From assembly GCF_013315695.1 (NCBI RefSeq), contig NZ_CP054355.1: a DNA stretch of 64,000 bases; one strand, 5' to 3'. This stretch comes from Escherichia coli (GTDB lineage Bacteria; Pseudomonadota; Gammaproteobacteria; Enterobacterales; Enterobacteriaceae). Below the pieces are notes generated by a model, which ran no database searches, was not told the DNA's origin, and saw only the letters and a list, made by a program, of their open reading frames with translations. A program made the position numbers and the translations under genes. Positions 24,721 through 59,863 of the stretch are shown in pieces; the first letter of the stretch is position 1; every line of letters begins with the position of its first letter.

Positions 24721-27708
24721 TTAAGGCTGTTTTTTGTACTGACTGACATCAACTGCTCGCAAAGGACGATACTTCCCTTCAGCCAGCTTCTTATTGTTTT
24801 TCCAGATATAGTCCCCTGTCAGATTAATGTGCTCCCAGCCCAGCGGAGACAAATGTGACAACAATTGCTCATTAATATGTAGCCCTTTCTTTTTCAGCAG
24901 GTTAATGGCGTTTTCTATATATACGGTATTCCACAAAGTGATTGCGGCAGTGAGCAGCGTAAGCCCACTGGCGCGGTAACTCTGGTTTTCAATACCACGA
25001 TCCCTTATTTCTCCCAGACGATGCATGAAGACAGCTCTGGCAAGGGCATTCCGGGCTTCCCCTTTGTTCAGACCTGCCTGAACCCTACGACGAAGCGCCG
25101 GATCGCGGAACCAGTCCAGCATGAACAGTGTTCGCTCAATACGACCAATTTCTCTTAACGCCTTAGCAAGGCCATTCTGTTTCGGATAACTGGTCAATTT
25201 TTTCAGCATCAGAGAAGCGGTCACTGTTCCCTGTTTTATTGAGGTCGCCAGTCTCAGAATTTCATTCCAGTGTATTTTTATCTCTTTGATATTCAGGGGG
25301 GTTGTGGAGATAATTGACTGTAGAGCAGGATAGTTATCAGCTTTACCTTGAATAAACAAACGTTTGTCATGCAGATCCCGGATCCTTGGGGCAAAAGCGA
25401 ATCCCAGCAGATGCATTAGTGCAAAAACATGCTCCGTGAAACCTGCTGTATCGGTGTAATGTTCCGTTATATCAAGGTCACTTTCGTGATACAGAAGACC
25501 ATCAAGTACGTGGGTGGAATCACGAACACGACTGATTACTTTGGTATAAAACGGACTATATTGATCTGAGATATGCGTATAAAACTGCACCCCAGGTTCC
25601 TGACCGTACTTCAAATTAACCTGACCGGCATAGCGCCCATGACTGCCAACCCTAAAATTCTGGCCGTCAGAGGATGAGGTGGAACCGTCTCCCCATAATG
25701 CCGCCAGCGGTCGTGACTTCTGGGCATTAACCAGTTCTGCCAGTGCAGCAGAGTACGTTTCATCACGGATGTACCATGCTTGTATGTTTTCCAGCGAAGC
25801 TCGTGTGGTTCCCGGACAGGACTCTGCCATTTTTTCCAACCCTAGATTGATGCCGTCCGCCAGGATAGTGGTTAGTAGTAAACGATTATCCTGAGGACGG
25901 ATTAGCGGATTCTTAAGATGAGTAAAATGTCGCGAGAAGGCAGTCCATCGCTCGACTTCATCAAGTATCTCTGTAATTTTGGGGTGCGGTAGCATGTTGT
26001 AAATCAGGTCGGCCAGGGGAGAGACTGTTGAAGGAACGCTGTTATCCAGTGGGGTGATCTTTACACCTTTATCTGAAATATCCACATCAGGAAGCTCCCC
26101 TGCGACAGCCATTGCGTTAACTTCCTCCAGACGGGAGGCCAGTAGAGTCAGTCTGGCATTAAGATAAGCCCCGCATTCTGTGCCAACAGGTAAATTTAAT
26201 AGGTTATTATTTAATAACTTTTCGAAATCATCGTTAGGCATAAGATAATCATCAAAGTTTTTGTAGCGCCGGGAGCCCCTGACCCAGATATCACCCGCCC
26301 GCAGCGCCCCCTTTAGCTCATTCATTGCGCAAATTTCATAGTATTGTCGGTCAATGCCTGAGGGGGTGACCACCATCTTTCTCCAGCTCTCAGGAATGAA
26401 ATCCAGTGGTGCCGATGCAGGAACCTTTCGTAGCTGTTTACGGTACATATCACGAATAGTTTCAAGGGCATCATTAAGCGGCAACGCTGCCGAAGTGGCT
26501 CTCAGTTGCAGGGCCGATAGAAAACGAAAAGAATATTTGCGCAATGTACTGAATTTTTCGGTAATAAGATGAAGCGGCTCAAAATTATCCTTACGTGCAA
26601 GAAGCTTTGTTTCCTCCAGACTGGCGACAAAATCGTCCCACGGTAACACTCGTTCAATAGCAGACAGAGGATCTTCGCCTGCATTGCGTGCATCCAGGAT
26701 AGCCTGGCCAACAGAAACATACTGACGTAACTTTTGCTGTATCAACTTGCCCGTTTTCTGAAGACGCTCAGCCTGCTGATGTTTTGCCCGACTGAACATG
26801 CTGCCTAGAATACGTTCATGCAGTTCTATAATTTCATCAATGATTGTGGCTCTGGCCTCAGTCAGTACACAGACCATCGTTGCGTATCGACGAGCAGGGG
26901 AAAAATCAGCCAGATCGCGACTGCTCATTTTGCGGCCCTCACGCGCGAGTTTCAGCAATCGGTTCTGGTGAACGGTTCTCTCCACTCCTTCCGGCAGCGC
27001 CAGAGCTTCAATAGCGTTAAGGCGGTCAATGTGTTGCAGGACATTCTTTCCATTGATTTTCCCTGGAGGTTGAAGCAGCCACGTCAAACGGGATATTTGT
27101 TTTTCATTTGTCACCAACAGGGCATCAAGCGCAGATTTATGCGTGATATCAAGGTGCGCATTCAGCGTTGTATACACCGTTTTATCACCCAGTGTCATTG
27201 CTTCTGCACAGGTACGTTCCAGAACATCAATGCCTGGAATAATAATTCGCTGTTGATGCAGGTACTTTAGTAACTCCTCTGCGATAAGTATGCCTCTGTC
27301 CGTTCTGGTAGACAGAGGGAGCAGATGCCGGATACATTCTTTCTGAAGTGCACCGTTAAAGGCTTTCAGTTCAAGATATCGATAAAGTTCCCTCATATGC
27401 TCACGTCTGGTGGTATCACGACCGGAAACGTATTCCTGCCAAAGTTCTGCTGATAACTTAAGTCGAGCGCCAATGGTTTTTAGCAATTTTGCGGGTGGGG
27501 ATGATTTTTTATCCGGGGCAAACCCAATACTTTTCAGATAACAGAGAAGAACGGCAAAACCAAACCGGCTGGCAGGTTTACGGTGAGCATTGATAATTGC
27601 CAGATCCTGCTCACTGAAATACGTCATTCGAGTCAGTGTTAACTCATCGTCTGGCAATGCCAGTAATGATTCTCTTTCCGATAGAGAAAGAATCTGCCTC
27701 CTTGCCAT
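24721..27708 (-). CDS. tnpA: Tn3-family transposase TnpA
   Basis: 995 aa; stop codon lies inside the terminal IR as in Tn3-family elements. Confidence 0.8.
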   Translation of the reverse strand: MARRQILSLSERESLLALPDDELTLTRMTYFSEQDLAIINAHRKPASRFGFAVLLCYLKSIGFAPDKKSSPPAKLLKTIGARLKLSAELWQEYVSGRDTTRREHMRELYRYLELKAFNGALQKECIRHLLPLSTRTDRGILIAEELLKYLHQQRIIIPGIDVLERTCAEAMTLGDKTVYTTLNAHLDITHKSALDALLVTNEKQISRLTWLLQPPGKINGKNVLQHIDRLNAIEALALPEGVERTVHQNRLLKLAREGRKMSSRDLADFSPARRYATMVCVLTEARATIIDEIIELHERILGSMFSRAKHQQAERLQKTGKLIQQKLRQYVSVGQAILDARNAGEDPLSAIERVLPWDDFVASLEETKLLARKDNFEPLHLITEKFSTLRKYSFRFLSALQLRATSAALPLNDALETIRDMYRKQLRKVPASAPLDFIPESWRKMVVTPSGIDRQYYEICAMNELKGALRAGDIWVRGSRRYKNFDDYLMPNDDFEKLLNNNLLNLPVGTECGAYLNARLTLLASRLEEVNAMAVAGELPDVDISDKGVKITPLDNSVPSTVSPLADLIYNMLPHPKITEILDEVERWTAFSRHFTHLKNPLIRPQDNRLLLTTILADGINLGLEKMAESCPGTTRASLENIQAWYIRDETYSAALAELVNAQKSRPLAALWGDGSTSSSDGQNFRVGSHGRYAGQVNLKYGQEPGVQFYTHISDQYSPFYTKVISRVRDSTHVLDGLLYHESDLDITEHYTDTAGFTEHVFALMHLLGFAFAPRIRDLHDKRLFIQGKADNYPALQSIISTTPLNIKEIKIHWNEILRLATSIKQGTVTASLMLKKLTSYPKQNGLAKALREIGRIERTLFMLDWFRDPALRRRVQAGLNKGEARNALARAVFMHRLGEIRDRGIENQSYRASGLTLLTAAITLWNTVYIENAINLLKKKGLHINEQLLSHLSPLGWEHINLTGDYIWKNNKKLAEGKYRPLRAVDVSQYKKQP

Positions 27709-27874
27709 ATAGTTATCCTTGTTAATTATTTAGTACGTTATTTTTGATGAAAAGGTTATTGCATAAGGGTACACCCTGATGCGAGATATAAAATGTGACC
27801 TCATACAAATAATGACATAACCTATATGCGATAGAATATATGCAACAACCTAAATGCGACAATGCGGTGAAAAA
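27709..27874. promoter_or_regulatory. res site / divergent promoter region between tnpA and tnpR
   Basis: AT-rich intergenic region with repeated atgcga-containing subsites. Confidence 0.5.
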
Positions 27875-28516
27875 ATGTTCATCAGAGCTTATTTAAGGGC
27901 GTCAACAGAAGATCAGTTTGCAGATCGAGCAAAAGAGATGCTGGAACAGTTCGTCCAAGAACGGGGGCATAAAATTGCCAGTTATTATCGGGAGAACATA
28001 AGCGGTACAAAACTTGACCGTCCGGAACTGAAACGCTTACTGATGGACAGTCACCGTAATGATATTTTGCTGGTCGAGCAGATAGACCGCCTGACCCGAC
28101 TGAGTAACAGCGACTGGATAACGCTGAAAAAGCAGATAGAACAACACGAACTGCGGATTGTCAGTCTGGATGTTCCAACATCATGGCAAGCCCTGTCAGA
28201 TAAAGATCCTTCACAATCAGATCCGATTACCCGCGCAGTGATAACTGCAATAAATAATATGCTTATAGACCTGATGGCCGCGATGTCGCATAAGGACTGG
28301 CTGAGTCGTCGCCAACGCCAAAAACAGGGAATTGAACGAGCTCATACGTTGGGTAAATACCGGGGAAAACAGGCCGATCAGGAACGTCATCAGAAAGTGT
28401 TGTACTACAGACAAGTAAAAAAACTCAGCATTAGAGAAACAGCAGATGCAACGGGCTACAGCACTTCGCAGGTTTGTCGCATTCAGGCTCTCTATAAAGA
28501 GGTTAAACCTGATTAA
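27875..28516 (+). CDS. tnpR: serine recombinase (resolvase TnpR-like)
   Basis: MFIRAYLRASTEDQ N-terminal serine-recombinase motif. Confidence 0.7.
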   Translation: MFIRAYLRASTEDQFADRAKEMLEQFVQERGHKIASYYRENISGTKLDRPELKRLLMDSHRNDILLVEQIDRLTRLSNSDWITLKKQIEQHELRIVSLDVPTSWQALSDKDPSQSDPITRAVITAINNMLIDLMAAMSHKDWLSRRQRQKQGIERAHTLGKYRGKQADQERHQKVLYYRQVKKLSIRETADATGYSTSQVCRIQALYKEVKPD

Positions 28517-28959
28517 AAAACAGCCTTAACGTACAATATTTTCCGTTTCCCAAACGGAGCCCTGCTAGCCTTTTCGTAATCATGCCATTGGAGATCATCT
28601 GGATTGATGTTAGGCATGACGTCTTGGCTGTAAAGCAAAAAATCAAGTGAGTCATCCATGATCTTCTCAAAACGCTTACTGCGGTTGTTTCTGTCACTAA
28701 TAGAGCCCGCCTGATACCACCTTTCCGACAACTGCCGATATCGAAGGAAGTGCTCATCCTCTTTCAGTTGATGAAACTGGTTCCTGATTTGTGCATCAAG
28801 CCGAATTGCCAGACCAGTAAAATCAGGTAACACAACCTTATGAGGGGCATTTTTGGGAGAAATCAGAGAAATGAATTCAGAAACCTGCATATCCTTGCTC
28901 TGAGGCCCGTAACGTTTATCAGAGCGGCGGGTGCCAATAAAAAAGCTTTCAATCGTCAT
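28513..28959 (-). CDS. hypothetical protein; 3' end replaced by Tn3-family IR sequence
   Basis: 148-aa ORF whose last ~16 codons are encoded within the transposon IR. Confidence 0.3.
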   Translation of the reverse strand: MTIESFFIGTRRSDKRYGPQSKDMQVSEFISLISPKNAPHKVVLPDFTGLAIRLDAQIRNQFHQLKEDEHFLRYRQLSERWYQAGSISDRNNRSKRFEKIMDDSLDFLLYSQDVMPNINPDDLQWHDYEKASRAPFGKRKILYVKAVF

Positions 28960-29006
28960 GATTTACCATATTAATCAGTATGTTACTCATTTATGTGTGT
29001 ATGAGG

Positions 29007-29171
29007 TTACATGTAGTACAGATGTAAAACCGGCGTAAGCCGGTGCGTTCGTCCGAAATAACCAATCCGTTCGTCCAGTTCAATGGCTGCTATCAGGTTC
29101 TGCTCCGCAATGTATTCACGAATGCGCTTCCTGTCCTGGCTGGCCAGCATGGTCCAGAATATCTCCATCAT
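29007..29171 (-). pseudogene. ParE/RelE-family toxin, truncated after about 37 residues (55-aa ORF)
   Basis: MMEIFWTMLASQDRKRIREYIAEQNLIAAIELDERI matches the ParE/RelE N-terminal helix pattern, then diverges and stops; 4-bp overlap with the upstream antitoxin. Confidence 0.45.
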
Positions 29172-29437
29172 TTACCGGCAACCTTCCTGCTCATTTCATC
29201 TCGCCATGCTGCAGCAGAGGATTCGACCATGTCATGGGGAAGTACATCGCCGTGCTCGAGTTGCTGACGTCCTGCCTCAACCTGGTCACGGAACCAGGTA
29301 TTATGCTGCCGTTCAACGGTCTGACGCATAAAATCCCGGATTAACTGAGAGCCATTACGGTCCATGCTTTTTGCAGCGGCCATAAAAGCATCCTTCAGTT
29401 CAGCGTCGATTCTTAAACTCATATTAACCTGTGCCAT
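29168..29437 (-). CDS. ribbon-helix-helix antitoxin (RelB/DinJ/ParD-like)
   Basis: N-terminal MSLRIDAELKDAF... RHH signature; translationally coupled to the toxin remnant. Confidence 0.55.
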   Translation of the reverse strand: MAQVNMSLRIDAELKDAFMAAAKSMDRNGSQLIRDFMRQTVERQHNTWFRDQVEAGRQQLEHGDVLPHDMVESSAAAWRDEMSRKVAGK

Positions 29438-29459
29438 TTATCACCTCGTCATTACTACG

Positions 29460-29476
29460 TATATACACAGTATATA
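29460..29476. promoter_or_regulatory. palindromic operator candidate upstream of the antitoxin
   Basis: Perfect palindrome tatatacACAgtatata 23 bp upstream of the antitoxin start. Confidence 0.4.
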
Positions 29477-29639
29477 ACGATTCAGACATCGTCACCAGGA
29501 TATGCCGCGTCAGCGGCATGGAAGGCGGCACGCTGTGGTTACATGTGATACCGGAGTAAAACCGCCGAAGCCCGGCGTCAGCCGATACTGATTGATAGAT
29601 TTCACCTTACCCATCCCCAGCCCTGCCAGACCATACCCG

Positions 29640-29880
29640 CTTTCAGCCATGAGAGAGCTTCTGTGCGCGGTCGGAGTGGTCCCGACGAGGGTTTACCCGA
29701 AGTCGGGGCGTATCTCCGCGTTAGCGGGCCGTGAGGGCCGCTTACGAGCGTGTACTGAGAACTTCCAGCGAGAAGACTGACAGCGATGATGATGTAGTTA
29801 CAACATTCATAATTAAAAGCGACTCTGTTCCGGCCCTTCGGGCCGGGGCGGGGCCGCTTTTCAGTTATGAGGGAGGGGCT
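29640..29880. other. structured non-coding element X, candidate single-strand initiation (G-site-type) priming signal downstream of oriR
   Basis: Several hairpins (ccggcccttcgggccgg); shares gtcccgac...ggccgtSagggccgcttacgagcKtgta with element Y at 60560-60730. Confidence 0.35.
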
Positions 29881-29999
29881 TTGTTGTTTCGGTTCTGCGC
29901 TGGACCGGGGTTTTCCTGGTGGTTGTATTTGAGTGTTGTAACTAAAATGGCTCCGGTCGGGGCCCGCCGCTTGCGGTGGGAGGTGCATATCTGTCTGTC

Positions 30000-30350: not shown

Positions 30351-31208
30351 TCAGGGGGAAGCTGTAGCCAGCCGGCTGTAATTGCGGTTACGTGACAGAA
30401 TCATGCGCTCCTTCACACGACGCTCCACTTCGCGTTTTACCGTCTCACCATTAGCAGTAAAGCGCCCTTCCGAGATTTCACGCGTCAGCTGCCGTTTCAC
30501 CAGGGTGACGATATCCTGACGTTCCCTGTTCGCATCACGACGCGCACGGGCACGTTTTATTCCACGGGACTTAAGCTCTGTCTGGTAACTGCGGAAACGC
30601 TCACGCACAAAACGCCAGGCTTTCGCTATTAGTTCATCCATACCCAGGGTATCCAGCCCCTGTTTTTTGCGCTGTCTGTTTTCCCATTCAACACGACTGC
30701 GGCGCGCAGCTGCCACTGCATCCTCAGACACATCAAGGGCAGCAAACAGAGCCGGTGTGAACGTGATATCGGTCGGAATGTAGCACCCGATAAGCGGGTC
30801 ATATTCCGTCTGGTAGGTAATCAACCCCAGCTCTGACAGGAACGTCAGGGCACGGGTGGCACGAGTGATGGAGAGTTTTCCTGCACCGGACTCTGTCGCC
30901 AGTCCGCACTCAATGGCCAGCGTGGTGATGGAGCACTGGACGCGGTTGGCCAGCGGGTCATAGTGGAAACACAGCCCCTGCAGGAGCGCATCAATAGCCC
31001 GTCGACGCAGCACCGGTGGCATGCGTCGACGCAGACCACGCGAACGGGCATGCGCCACATGAATGGCGAAATCAAAACGGGAGGTGAAGCCCACCGCCTT
31101 TTCCATCAGTTTTTCGCAGAACTTCAGCGTTCCGGCACCTTTACGGGGTGTAAACACCGGATTCGGGTTCTTTACCTGGCGGTAATACGTTTGGTGAAGA
31201 TCAGTCAC
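30351..31208 (-). CDS. repA1: IncFII replication initiator RepA1
   Basis: 285 aa from a GTG start, [19 protein letters not shown]...RLATASP, as remembered for R100/R1 RepA1. Confidence 0.85.
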
Positions 31209-31295
31209 ACCATCCTGCACTTATGTTGCACAGAAGGAGTGAGCACAGAAAGAAGTCTTGAACTTTTCCGGGCATATAACTATACTCCCCGCATA

Positions 31296-31386
31296 GAGCA
31301 ACAGCTTCTATGCAGTTTCTTGTTAGCCCCGGTAATCTTTCCTACTCGCCAAAGTTGAAGAAGATTATCGGGGTTTTCGCTTTTCT
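31296..31386 (+). ncRNA. copA: CopA-like antisense RNA of the IncFII replicon (approximate)
   Basis: Plus-strand stem-loop ccccggtaatctt...aagattatcgggg followed by ttttcgctttt, between repA2 and repA1. Confidence 0.45.
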
Positions 31387-57476: not shown

Positions 57477-58121
57477 ATGATTACTGTAGTTGGTGGGAAC
57501 AAAGGTGGTTCAGGGAAAACTACCATTGCATCAAACCTGGCTATTGCTCTCGCAAATAAAGGAAGGGAAGTCTGCCTGTTAAACGGAGATCTACAACGAA
57601 CAGCCGCAAAACATCATGCGGAACGAGAAGCTGCAGGACTGTTACCAGCAATAACCCTTGTTGAGAAATTTGATAACCTGACACAAACACTACAGGCTCT
57701 GAATGAAAAGTTCGATGATGTAATAGTGGATGTCGCAGGAAGAAACTCAAAGGAATTCATAACGAGTGGAGTTGTCGCACATCAAATAATTGCGCCACTA
57801 CAGTGTTCTCAACCAGATCTGGATACTCTTACAGAACTAGAACAACAGATAGACGCAATGCGTAACCTTAACCCGGAACTTAAGGTTTATTGTTTACAAA
57901 GTATGGCAACAACCAATCCGGTTTTGAGGGGAAATGAGAGAAAAGAATTCCTTGAATATCTTGAAGAATTCCCAACAATTCAAGTCCTTGATTCAGTTAT
58001 TTGTTTCAGAAAAGTCTATCGCGATTGCATGAGCAACGGCACCGGTGTAGTAGAAACGAACAATACAGCAGCCAAAGCAGAAATTGAACATTTAATGAAT
58101 GAGGTATTTGGCCCATGGTGA
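57477..58121 (+). CDS. parA: ParA-family partition ATPase (small type Ib, pB171 par2-like)
   Basis: Deviant Walker A GGNKGGSGKTT; 214 aa. Confidence 0.75.
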   Translation: MITVVGGNKGGSGKTTIASNLAIALANKGREVCLLNGDLQRTAAKHHAEREAAGLLPAITLVEKFDNLTQTLQALNEKFDDVIVDVAGRNSKEFITSGVVAHQIIAPLQCSQPDLDTLTELEQQIDAMRNLNPELKVYCLQSMATTNPVLRGNERKEFLEYLEEFPTIQVLDSVICFRKVYRDCMSNGTGVVETNNTAAKAEIEHLMNEVFGPW

Positions 58122-58390
58122 AGAAACCCAGCCAGCAAGCATTAAACAGAGCTGCAGTTACGGTAGAACAAGCAGAGGCTCTGGCTCAGCGCCTTGCGGA
58201 TAAACCATACGGCGCGCCGGAAAAACCCGAACCAGAAAAACAATGTCGGACGACAATCTCTCTTGGTGAAAGCATGCTTGTCACAATAGAAGATCTGGCA
58301 TTGAGGAATAAACGCAATGGTAAAGATCCAAAAAATGTAAGTGCCATCGTCAGAGTAGCCCTTGAGCAATACTTAAAAACACTAACGTAA
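58115..58390 (+). CDS. parB: small centromere-binding partner (ParB/ParG-like)
   Basis: 91-aa ORF overlapping the parA stop (ATGGTGA). Confidence 0.55.
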   Translation: MVKKPSQQALNRAAVTVEQAEALAQRLADKPYGAPEKPEPEKQCRTTISLGESMLVTIEDLALRNKRNGKDPKNVSAIVRVALEQYLKTLT

Positions 58391-58527: not shown

Positions 58528-59337
58528 TTATGCGTGTCTGTTTTTCAGCATTGTGACCGCATCGGACTCAGGCATCGAAAACTGCACCCGGTGCCGTGCA
58601 GCCACATCCAGCGCAAACACCTTCGTGTAGACCTCCGTTGAGCTGATGGACTTATGCCCCATCAGGCTCTGCAGGACCTTCAGTGGTATACCGGCATACA
58701 GCATGTGCATCGCATAGGAATGGCGGAACGTATGTGGCGTGACCGGGACAGAGAACGTCACACCGTCAGTAGCAGCGGCGGCAACCGCCTCCCCAATCCA
58801 GGTCCTGACCGTTCTGTCCGTCACTTCCCAGATCCGCGCTTTCTCTGTCCTGCCTGTTCGTTTATTACGCCGTTCCAGAGGAATTTTCAGTGTTGCCACC
58901 ATCGTCTGCAGCTGACTGACGTACCAGGAGTCGGAGAGCGGAACCAGCCGGTGAGTCTGCTGTCCGGCAGGCGTTCTTCCTGCCGTCCTGGCGGCTTTTT
59001 CGGTCCGCTGCTTCAGAGTGGCCAGCTGCACAAACGGATACGGAGGCGCGAGCGAAAAATCCCCCCGCGTCAGCGCCAGTGCTTCATTAATGCGCGCACC
59101 GGTGTTCCACAGTGTGGCCAGCAGCATCTTGCGGCGCAGATCCGGGACGTAATGGAGCAGGGCACTCACTTCCGGAGCCAGCAGATATTTCGGCAGTTCA
59201 TCATGAACCATCGACATCTGGCGAAGTGCCAGAGCTGCCGGATAATCAATGACAACAGGAAGTTGTGGAGACTGTCCGGCAGAATAAACTGCCGGTACCC
59301 TGGCTGCAGACTGGCTGTGTATAACGGAGCCTGACAT
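58528..59337 (-). CDS. resD: tyrosine site-specific recombinase ResD (multimer resolution)
   Basis: 269 aa with C-terminal R..HxxR..Y catalytic pattern; adjacent to ccdB as in F. Confidence 0.75.
   Translation of the reverse strand: MSGSVIHSQSAARVPAVYSAGQSPQLPVVIDYPAALALRQMSMVHDELPKYLLAPEVSALLHYVPDLRRKMLLATLWNTGARINEALALTRGDFSLAPPYPFVQLATLKQRTEKAARTAGRTPAGQQTHRLVPLSDSWYVSQLQTMVATLKIPLERRNKRTGRTEKARIWEVTDRTVRTWIGEAVAAAATDGVTFSVPVTPHTFRHSYAMHMLYAGIPLKVLQSLMGHKSISSTEVYTKVFALDVAARHRVQFSMPESDAVTMLKNRHA

Positions 59338-59863
<526 letters not shown>

What the first reader, a model, noticed from the sequence alone, without database searches (positions are those of the whole stretch)
29007..29480. 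Toxin-antitoxin pair with a decapitated ParE/RelE-like toxin and an intact antitoxin
The toxin frame keeps only the first ~37 conserved residues before diverging and stopping at 55 aa, while the RHH antitoxin and a perfect palindromic operator are intact. This is the expected decay path once addiction is no longer needed, or a sign of antitoxin cross-talk with another ParE-type toxin.
Basis: partly seen in the sequence, partly recalled or inferred. Interest (0 to 1): 0.4.

Follow-up and report, generated by a model that had tools for sequence, protein, structure and literature searches.

The report
Truncated yacB toxin, intact yacA antitoxin
This is the known yacA-yacB toxin-antitoxin pair next to an IncFII plasmid replication origin, in which a DNA rearrangement removed the last two thirds of the toxin gene and left a working-looking antitoxin; databases already annotate the remnant as a pseudogene, so the finding is real but ordinary.

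Summary
Window 29168-29437 (-) encodes an intact 89-aa YacA antitoxin. Window 29007-29171 (-) is a 54-aa frame whose first 38 residues are YacB, a ParE/RelE-fold toxin that is normally 93 aa. The last 16 residues are read-through into unrelated DNA.

The lesion is not point decay, a frameshift or a sequencing error. DNA homology to full-length yacAB loci stops at about 29057. What follows is a second copy (R2) of a ~50-nt hairpin-containing element whose other copy (R1) lies upstream of yacA. No YacB C-terminus is encoded anywhere in the 64 kb.

The same junction occurs in 55 of about 1,800 yacB-bearing PLSDB plasmids and in 69 of 5,426 complete RefSeq E. coli genomes. RefSeq annotates it there as "yacB, pseudogene, missing C-terminus".

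An orphan YacA beside a dead YacB is already described for Shigella pWR100, where the lesion is different (a 2-nt insertion). An intact ccdAB pair lies elsewhere in the window.

Most likely this is a dead addiction module. YacA is still made and probably represses its own promoter at a conserved palindrome (29460-29476). A role as protection against other yacAB plasmids is possible but untested. Interest is low.

The parts
29168..29437 (-). yacA, intact antitoxin gene (89 aa; putative N-terminal ribbon-helix-helix)
   Evidence: ORF. It is identical to WP_000079939.1, annotated 'type II toxin-antitoxin system antitoxin YacA'. The N-terminal ~44 residues give weak, sub-threshold matches to RHH_1, RelB and RelB_DinJ.
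29058..29171 (-). yacB remnant: codons 1-38 of the 93-codon toxin gene
   Evidence: tblastn of full-length YacB hits only 29171..29058, residues 1-38, 94.7% identity. DNA is aligned to full-length loci in A1 and A2. RefSeq annotates the identical stretch as a yacB pseudogene, 'missing C-terminus'.
29007..29057 (-). 16 read-through codons plus a TAA stop (29007-29009), lying in non-yacB DNA
   Evidence: This stretch has no homology to yacB in any full-length locus. It translates the R2 element.
29056..29057 (.). Recombination breakpoint (about +/-2 nt) where yacB homology ends
   Evidence: In the junction-spanning search, about 1,750 plasmids match only query positions 68-136, which is window 29057-29125. 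Only 55 span the junction. Alignments A1 and A2 agree.
29002..29043 (-). R2, the downstream copy of the ~50-nt R element. Its hairpin ACCGGC-TTAC-GCCGGT is at 29029-29044 and is followed by TTTAC
   Evidence: Direct repeat D1, 76% identical to R1. The 27-nt core pattern occurs exactly twice in the window against 0.00 expected. The hairpin appears in the fold. R2 plus its 13-nt 5' flank matches the R element upstream of a different TA pair in L011 and L012.
29534..29577 (-). R1, the upstream copy of the R element between the IncFII origin region and yacA; it has a terminator-like hairpin
   Evidence: The terminator-like site at 29577-29563 (-) is. It is conserved upstream of yacA in full-length loci.
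29460..29476 (.). Perfect inverted repeat TATATAC-ACA-GTATATA, the putative YacA operator, overlapping -10-like TATACT/TATATA
   Evidence: Read directly from the sequence. An overlapping palindrome was reported (I5). The repeat is invariant in A1 and A2. Operator function is inferred, and the promoter scan found no canonical sigma-70 match.
29442..29447 (-). Shine-Dalgarno-like GAGGTG, 4 nt upstream of the yacA ATG
   Evidence: Read directly from the sequence.

Best explanation
The locus is the yacAB type II toxin-antitoxin module that sits just downstream of the IncFII replication origin. Here it is in a dead-toxin state.

An illegitimate recombination joined codon 38 of yacB to a foreign segment. 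That segment starts with a second copy (R2) of the hairpin-containing element that normally borders the replicon, and it continues into an unrelated 307-aa gene.

The surviving 38 residues cover only the short first strand, helix 1 and most of helix 2 of the ParE/RelE fold. All three C-terminal beta-strands are gone, so the 54-aa product cannot be a toxin.

yacA keeps its ribosome-binding site, its leader and the palindrome upstream. YacA is therefore probably still made and probably represses its own promoter. With no toxin, the module can no longer kill plasmid-free segregants.

An orphan antitoxin is the expected intermediate of TA decay, because losing the antitoxin first is lethal while losing the toxin first is harmless.

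Shown: the anatomy, the breakpoint, the loss of the C-terminus and the recurrence of the allele. Inferred: the recombination route, YacA expression and autorepression, and the lack of activity of the remnant.
For: Identity of the module.
- yacA is identical to a RefSeq-named YacA.
- The locus lies about 900 nt downstream of an IncFII repA (30351-31220), whose CopA RNA is at 31293-31382.

Truncation.
- Full-length YacB is 93 aa.
- DNA homology ends at about 29057.
- No C-terminal YacB coding sequence exists in the window.
- YacB aligns end to end with the solved ParE2 structure, 5CW7 (E 3.5e-08).
- A low-confidence AlphaFold model (pLDDT 60) gives E5-7, H10-24, H26-43, E58-63, E67-74, E79-87. 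Residue 38 therefore falls inside helix 2.

The allele is real and has spread.
- 55 PLSDB plasmids carry it, as do 69 of 5,426 complete RefSeq E. coli genomes.
- PGAP calls it a pseudogene.
- The same junction occurs behind a different RepA, in pCoo-type plasmids.

Origin.
- R2 and its 5' flank match the R element of another replicon-border lineage.
- A 12/15-nt patch of similarity lies at the crossover: GGATTGGTTAT-TTC against GGACTGGTGATATTC.

Precedent. In Shigella pWR100, yacB is killed by a 2-nt insertion while yacA stays intact (PMC5658099, PMC7354431). Other truncated YacB forms with unrelated tails exist.

Redundancy. Intact ccdA/ccdB lie at 59338-59863.
Against: No expression or toxicity data exist for this allele.

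The promoter scan found no canonical sigma-70 site upstream of yacA.

YacA's matches to RHH and RelB models are all below curated cut-offs.

The structure model is low confidence.

The actual donor of the R2 segment was not found. The nearest R copies are only about 77-87% identical, so the microhomology argument rests on relatives.

yacA differs between the two junction-bearing lineages by 6 synonymous and 2 non-synonymous changes. This hints at purifying selection and hence more than passive retention. However, the alleles look shuffled by recombination, so the comparison is not clean.
Confidence: 0.88

Rival explanations
1. The orphan YacA is kept by selection as an anti-addiction (immunity) factor. 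It would neutralise YacB made by co-resident or departing yacAB plasmids, for example ColV-type IncF plasmids. The host would then survive loss or displacement of those plasmids.
For: - yacA stays intact in every junction-bearing locus examined, in two diverged lineages, with 6 synonymous against 2 non-synonymous differences.
- yacB has been inactivated independently while yacA was kept (pWR100 in PMC5658099; other lesions).
- Intact yacAB is common on related plasmids, about 1,800 in PLSDB. A cognate toxin is therefore often encountered.
- The orphan-antitoxin and anti-addiction concept is reviewed in PMC7354431.
Against: - No second YacB-like toxin lies in the window, and the rest of the host genome is unseen.
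- The toxin-first order of loss produces orphan antitoxins without any selection.
- The allele is a minority, about 3% of yacB-bearing plasmids.
- yacA alleles appear to recombine, so the synonymous excess may predate the truncation.
Confidence: 0.15
2. The 54-aa product keeps a function. It might act as a partner that binds YacA and tunes autorepression, or as a small toxic or regulatory peptide.
For: - The frame keeps the ATGA overlap with yacA that allows translational coupling.
- It is conserved as an open frame in the 55 plasmids, and some submitters annotate it as a toxin CDS.
- The retained part is the N-terminal helical hairpin.
Against: - The 16-residue tail is a translation of a non-coding repeat with a hairpin.
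- In the pCoo-type lineage a 10-nt insertion in that hairpin changes the frame of the tail, so the tail is not conserved as protein.
- The whole beta-sheet is missing.
- The Pfam score is below threshold.
- If R2 terminates transcription, the message would end before its stop codon, giving a non-stop mRNA (inference).
Confidence: 0.04
3. The truncation is an assembly or sequencing artefact, or the window is a chimeric contig.
For: The locus lies between two rearrangement junctions, at about 29057 and about 28562.
Against: The identical yacB junction is present in 55 independently sequenced plasmids and 69 complete genomes from several species and countries.
Confidence: 0.01

Closest known systems
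yacAB of Shigella flexneri pWR100/pINV (orf176 = yacA with an inactivated yacB)
   Same: The gene pair and the outcome are the same: an intact YacA antitoxin next to a non-functional yacB, described as an orphan antitoxin (PMC5658099, PMC7354431, PMC9455713).
   Different: In pWR100 the lesion is a 2-nt insertion that causes a premature stop. Here the 3' two thirds of the gene were replaced by recombination at codon 38. The plasmid background also differs: IncFII with a tra region rather than pINV.
Intact yacAB of ColV/ColBM and other IncF plasmids
   Same: The position after repA, the origin and R1 is the same, as are the leader, the palindrome and the 4-nt gene overlap. yacA differs at 2 of 89 residues, and yacB codons 1-38 are about 95% identical (PMC4707298).
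   Different: Those loci encode the full 93-aa toxin and are followed by other genes such as cvi/cvaC. The window's allele lacks codons 39-93.
ParE2 of E. coli O157 (PaaA2-ParE2 complex, PDB 5CW7)
   Same: It is the closest solved structure to full-length YacB, aligned 1-93 to 1-92 at E 3.5e-08. Both belong to the ParE/RelE fold (PF05016).
   Different: The match is distant (32% identity to YacB in alignment A5). YacB's cellular target, gyrase or the ribosome, has not been tested. NCBIfam instead places it in RelE_StbE. The window's remnant covers only the helical hairpin.
Caulobacter crescentus parDE locus with a parE pseudogene
   Same: It is an orphan ParD-type antitoxin left by decay of its toxin gene, cited in PMC7354431.
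   Different: It is chromosomal, in an unrelated organism, with a different lesion.

Membership tests
yacAB toxin-antitoxin module of IncF-type plasmids | A yacA orthologue encoding the ~89-aa antitoxin | tested here: met
   It is 100% identical to WP_000079939.1, named YacA by RefSeq.
yacAB toxin-antitoxin module of IncF-type plasmids | A full-length yacB (92-93 aa) immediately downstream and overlapping yacA | tested here: not met
   The overlap is kept, but only codons 1-38 are present. No C-terminal coding sequence exists in the window.
yacAB toxin-antitoxin module of IncF-type plasmids | Location downstream of an FII-type repA/origin, after the R element, with the conserved leader and palindrome | tested here: met
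   repA is at 30351-31220 and CopA at 31293-31382. R1, the leader and the palindrome align with full-length loci.
ParE/RelE toxin superfamily (Pfam PF05016) | A score above Pfam's gathering cut-off over the whole domain | tested here: not met
   The remnant scores 18.9 bits against a cut-off of 23 and covers profile positions 1-32 of 89. The parent YacB scores 59.7 bits over 1-89.
ParE/RelE toxin superfamily (Pfam PF05016) | A C-terminal three-stranded beta-sheet packed on the N-terminal helical hairpin | tested here: not met
   The predicted strands are at residues 58-63, 67-74 and 79-87 of YacB (low confidence). The alignment to ParE2 5CW7 spans 1-93. The remnant ends its homology at residue 38.
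Ribbon-helix-helix antitoxins (RHH_1 / RelB-DinJ / ParD-like) | An N-terminal RHH DNA-binding domain recognised by curated models | tested here: inconclusive
   Curated profile matches are sub-threshold and the best solved-structure match is not significant:
- RHH_1, 16.1 bits against 20.5.
- RelB, 14.6 against 22.4.
- TIGR02384, 24.7 against 45.65.
- Best PDB match is a CopG-family regulator at E 0.27.
Functional addiction (post-segregational killing) module | A toxin that arrests growth, an antitoxin that neutralises it, and stabilisation of the plasmid | not testable with these tools
   This needs induction, neutralisation and plasmid-loss assays. The sequence argues against toxin activity.

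The most novel reading that the evidence does not exclude
The orphan yacA is not a relic but a selected anti-addiction gene. On this reading, plasmids carrying it protect their host from YacB released when a competing, incompatible yacAB plasmid is lost, which helps displacement. The R element that flanks the cassette on both sides would mark a recombination-prone 'TA slot' behind FII-type and I-complex replicons, through which such cassettes are exchanged.
Probability: 0.1. Interest if true: 0.45.

Novelty: already known. Interest (0 to 1): 0.12.

Why it matters
It matters little on its own. yacAB is a named module, and RefSeq already flags this remnant as a pseudogene.

Orphan YacA next to a dead YacB has been published for Shigella.

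The useful points are practical. Tools that score plasmids for TA content should not count this allele as a working addiction system. Some GenBank records also label the 54-aa frame as a toxin when it should be a pseudogene.

The modestly interesting by-product is the R element. It is a conserved hairpin-containing border between FII-type or I-complex replicons and a slot holding one of two unrelated RHH/ParE-type pairs. Here it is duplicated at the breakpoint. It could help explain how TA cassettes are swapped or destroyed on these plasmids.

Tried and rejected
Frameshift or sequencing error. tblastn of full-length YacB against all six frames of the window finds only residues 1-38.

A natural short toxin family. 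The short database forms have unrelated tails, and 93 aa is the dominant length.

A second ParE/YacB-like toxin in the window as a cross-talk partner. None was found. Pfam scans of ten ORFs in regions not otherwise characterised found CcdB but no ParE or RelE.

R2 as part of the upstream region of the 307-aa gene. Distant homologues of that gene on IncR and IncHI2 plasmids have no R element upstream.

A yacB remnant upstream of R in the 'other TA' plasmids. Only R and the leader are shared, 73 nt at 88% identity.

A known RNA family for R or the leader. Rfam finds only CopA and related replication-control structures near repA.

The R core as a Xer/dif-like site. By eye the resemblance to dif and cer arms is poor, so this was dropped without a formal test.

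A canonical sigma-70 promoter upstream of yacA. The scan found none. The best manual candidate is TGGTGA-17 nt-TATACT, which is weak.

dN/dS as proof of selection on the orphan yacA. pN/pS is about 0.08. However, the junction-bearing pCoo-type yacA is closer to a full-length allele than to the window's allele. The divergence may therefore predate or bypass the truncation, and the test is not decisive.

Full report
**What is at the coordinates**

On the minus strand, an 89-aa ORF at 29168-29437 overlaps by 4 nt (ATGA) a 54-aa ORF at 29007-29171.

The 89-aa product is identical to RefSeq WP_000079939.1, named 'type II toxin-antitoxin system antitoxin YacA'. Its first ~44 residues give weak matches to RHH_1, RelB and RelB_DinJ models, all below curated cut-offs. 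The best solved-structure match is a CopG-family regulator at E 0.27.

The 54-aa product matches Pfam ParE_toxin only over residues 4-36, which correspond to profile positions 1-32 of 89. The score is 18.9 bits against a cut-off of 23.

A protein search shows that the family is YacB, whose normal length is 93 aa. The largest full-length clusters hold 1,713 and 232 member sequences. The window's frame is identical to P0015 over residues 1-38. It then reads FGRTHRLTPVLHLYYM where YacB reads SASSLAGQPYKG....

The word 'decapitated' is also wrong, because the N-terminus is what survives.

**Nature of the lesion**

Aligning the locus with two full-length yacAB loci (CP122943, CP028383) gives near-identity from upstream of yacA through ...GACGAACGGATTGGTTATT. 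Similarity then drops abruptly. This places the breakpoint at window 29057/29056, give or take about 2 nt.

A 136-nt query spanning the junction confirms it. Of the 1,808 PLSDB records that match, most align only from query position 68, which is window 29057. Only 55 span the junction.

tblastn of full-length YacB against the window finds residues 1-38 and nothing else. There is therefore no frameshifted C-terminus to restore. The truncation is a replacement of the 3' two thirds of the gene, not mutational divergence.

**What replaced it**

Directly after the breakpoint lies a ~50-nt element, R2. It has a 6-bp G+C hairpin followed by TTTAC...ACATGTAACC. The new stop codon is the TAA inside that last motif.

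A second copy, R1 (29534-29575), lies upstream of yacA, between the origin region and the yacA leader. The two copies are 76% identical. The 27-nt core pattern occurs exactly twice in the 64 kb, against 0.00 expected.

R2 is followed by the start of a 307-aa hypothetical gene with no Pfam or NCBIfam match. All 55 PLSDB records that hold this flank also hold the junction.

Distant homologues of the 307-aa gene on IncR and IncHI2 plasmids lack R upstream. R is therefore not part of that gene.

R-like copies occur in about 1,000 plasmids. In pO157, a Klebsiella I-complex plasmid, E. coli CP010192 and Shigella pINV, R stands about 95 nt upstream of a different pair: a 94-aa RHH protein and a 91-aa RelE/ParE toxin. 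In pO157 and the Klebsiella plasmid it follows repA and the origin; in CP010192 and pINV, IS and transposase genes lie upstream instead. That toxin is 25% identical to YacB, and its antitoxin is unrelated to YacA.

R thus looks like the fixed border of a slot behind these replicons that holds one of two TA cassettes.

R2 and the 13 nt before it resemble the CP010192/pINV-type R more than the window's own R1. At the crossover, yacB (GGATTGGTTAT-TTC) and that lineage (GGACTGGTGATATTC) share 12 of 15 positions.

I infer an illegitimate, short-homology recombination between yacB and the border of another replicon lineage. The true donor was not found, so this step is inference.

**Spread**

The junction is present in 55 PLSDB plasmids from E. 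coli, Shigella, Salmonella and E. albertii. It is also in 69 of 5,426 complete RefSeq E. coli genomes.

It also occurs behind a different RepA, in the pCoo-type plasmids that are typed IncI-gamma/K1. There the flank is about 95% identical, and the R2 hairpin carries the 10-nt GGGCTTCGGC insertion also seen in R1.

RefSeq annotates the remnant in a 100%-identical record as 'yacB, pseudogene; incomplete; missing C-terminus'. Some GenBank submitters instead call the 165-nt frame a RelE/ParE toxin.

About 1,830 PLSDB plasmids encode the YacB C-terminus at 80% identity or more. The truncated allele is therefore a minority of about 3%.

**Consequences for function**

Full-length YacB aligns end to end with ParE2 of E. 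coli O157 (PDB 5CW7, E 3.5e-08).

A low-confidence AlphaFold model (pLDDT 60) gives a short strand at 5-7, helices at 10-24 and 26-43, and strands at 58-63, 67-74 and 79-87.

The remnant ends inside helix 2 and lacks the whole sheet, so toxin activity is very unlikely (inference).

The 16-residue tail is a translation of the R2 hairpin. In the pCoo-type lineage the 10-nt insertion shifts its frame, so the tail is not conserved as protein.

If R2 acts as a terminator, transcripts would end before the stop codon. That is inference only. The scan flagged R1 as terminator-like but not R2.

yacA keeps a GAGGTG ribosome-binding site at 29442-29447. It also keeps a leader with a perfect hairpin at 29502-29519 and the perfect inverted repeat TATATAC-ACA-GTATATA at 29460-29476. 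That repeat is invariant in all aligned loci.

By analogy with RHH antitoxins, YacA probably binds the repeat and represses its own promoter. This is established knowledge of type II TA systems, not tested here. No canonical promoter was detected.

**Why the antitoxin persists**

Losing an antitoxin while the toxin is intact is lethal, whereas losing the toxin is harmless. Orphan antitoxins are therefore the expected intermediate of decay.

The literature already describes exactly this state for yacAB in Shigella pWR100, caused by a 2-nt insertion (PMC5658099, PMC7354431; 'inactive TA loci' in PMC9455713).

Other YacB forms in the protein database have unrelated tails and lengths of 46, 47, 53 and 60 aa, which points to further independent lesions.

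Between the two junction-bearing lineages yacA differs by 6 synonymous and 2 non-synonymous changes, pN/pS about 0.08. This is compatible with continued selection, for example as protection against YacB from other plasmids. However, the pCoo-type yacA is closer to a full-length allele than to the window's allele. Recombination therefore blurs the inference.

No second YacB-like toxin exists in the window. An intact ccdA/ccdB pair does exist at 59338-59863, so the plasmid is not without an addiction system.

**Context**

The window is an IncF conjugative plasmid segment with these parts:
- an iron-uptake/senB region at 1-22 kb;
- a Tn3-family transposase and resolvase at 24.7-28.5 kb;
- the truncated 307-aa gene;
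- yacB'-yacA;
- the IncFII origin, repA and CopA;
- the distal part of the tra operon, traN through traI, traX and finO;
- a ccdAB/resD region.

**Verdict**

It is also already known: a named module, a published phenomenon and an annotated pseudogene.

What this analysis adds is the exact breakpoint, the recombinational origin of the lesion, the allele's frequency and the R-element border. Interest is low.

Noticed in passing
window 29002-29043 and 29534-29575; L011 1501-1565; L012 1501-1563; L015 2501-2538; L016 1850-1885: A ~50-nt hairpin-containing element (R) stands about 95 nt upstream of an RHH + ParE/RelE pair in many plasmids, following repA and the origin in those where a replicon is seen. 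The pair is either yacAB or an unrelated 94-aa/91-aa pair (pO157, a Klebsiella I-complex plasmid, Shigella pINV). R looks like the fixed edge of a 'TA slot'. About 1,000 PLSDB records hold an R-like copy.
   Followed up: partly
window 29502-29519 (-): A perfect 7-bp stem with a 4-nt loop, ATGCCGC-TGAC-GCGGCAT, lies in the yacA leader between R1 and the palindrome. A shorter version of it is present in the leader of the other TA pair (A4). Its function is unknown.
   Followed up: no
window 29795-29809 and 29930-29944: Inverted pair TAGTTACAACATTCA / TGAGTGTTGTAACTA, 93% complementary (I3). It carries the GTTGTAAC core typical of Tus-binding Ter sites, in the region downstream of the IncFII origin. 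I recall such paired Ter sites from R1/R100-type plasmids; this was not tested here.
   Followed up: no
window 28513-28959 (-) and about 28525-28562: The 307-aa hypothetical gene next to yacB' is itself cut after about 130 codons. Homology with all 55 related plasmids stops at 28562. A Tn3-family-like terminal repeat (...ACGGAAAATATTGTACGTTAA) begins there, followed by a resolvase (27854-28516 +) and a 995-aa transposase (24721-27708 -). No PLSDB record among the top hits shares this second junction.
   Followed up: partly
window 59338-59863 (-); 58528-59337 (-); 57477-58390 (+): There is an intact F-type ccdA/ccdB pair (CcdB Pfam E 3e-32) with a tyrosine recombinase (resD-like) downstream. 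Nearby are a ParA-like ATPase (214 aa) and a 91-aa RHH protein, likely a partition pair.
   Followed up: partly
proteins P0007, P0012, P0024/P0029, P0047: These are other truncated YacB forms with different tails. P0007 (53 aa, 21 members) ends in DEMSRKVAGK, which is the C-terminus of YacA. That suggests an internal rearrangement that fuses yacB to a yacA 3' end.
   Followed up: no
L001 / L007 (CP027554.1), repA: In the record whose yacA-yacB' locus is 100% identical to the window, RefSeq marks the IncFII repA as frameshifted. The window's repA frame (30351-31220) is open at 289 aa.
   Followed up: no
GenBank records CP057145.1, CP057800.1, CP088797.1 and others: Submitter annotation labels the 165-nt remnant as a 'type II toxin-antitoxin system RelE/ParE family toxin' CDS. 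RefSeq calls the same sequence a pseudogene. This inconsistency would inflate TA counts.
   Followed up: yes
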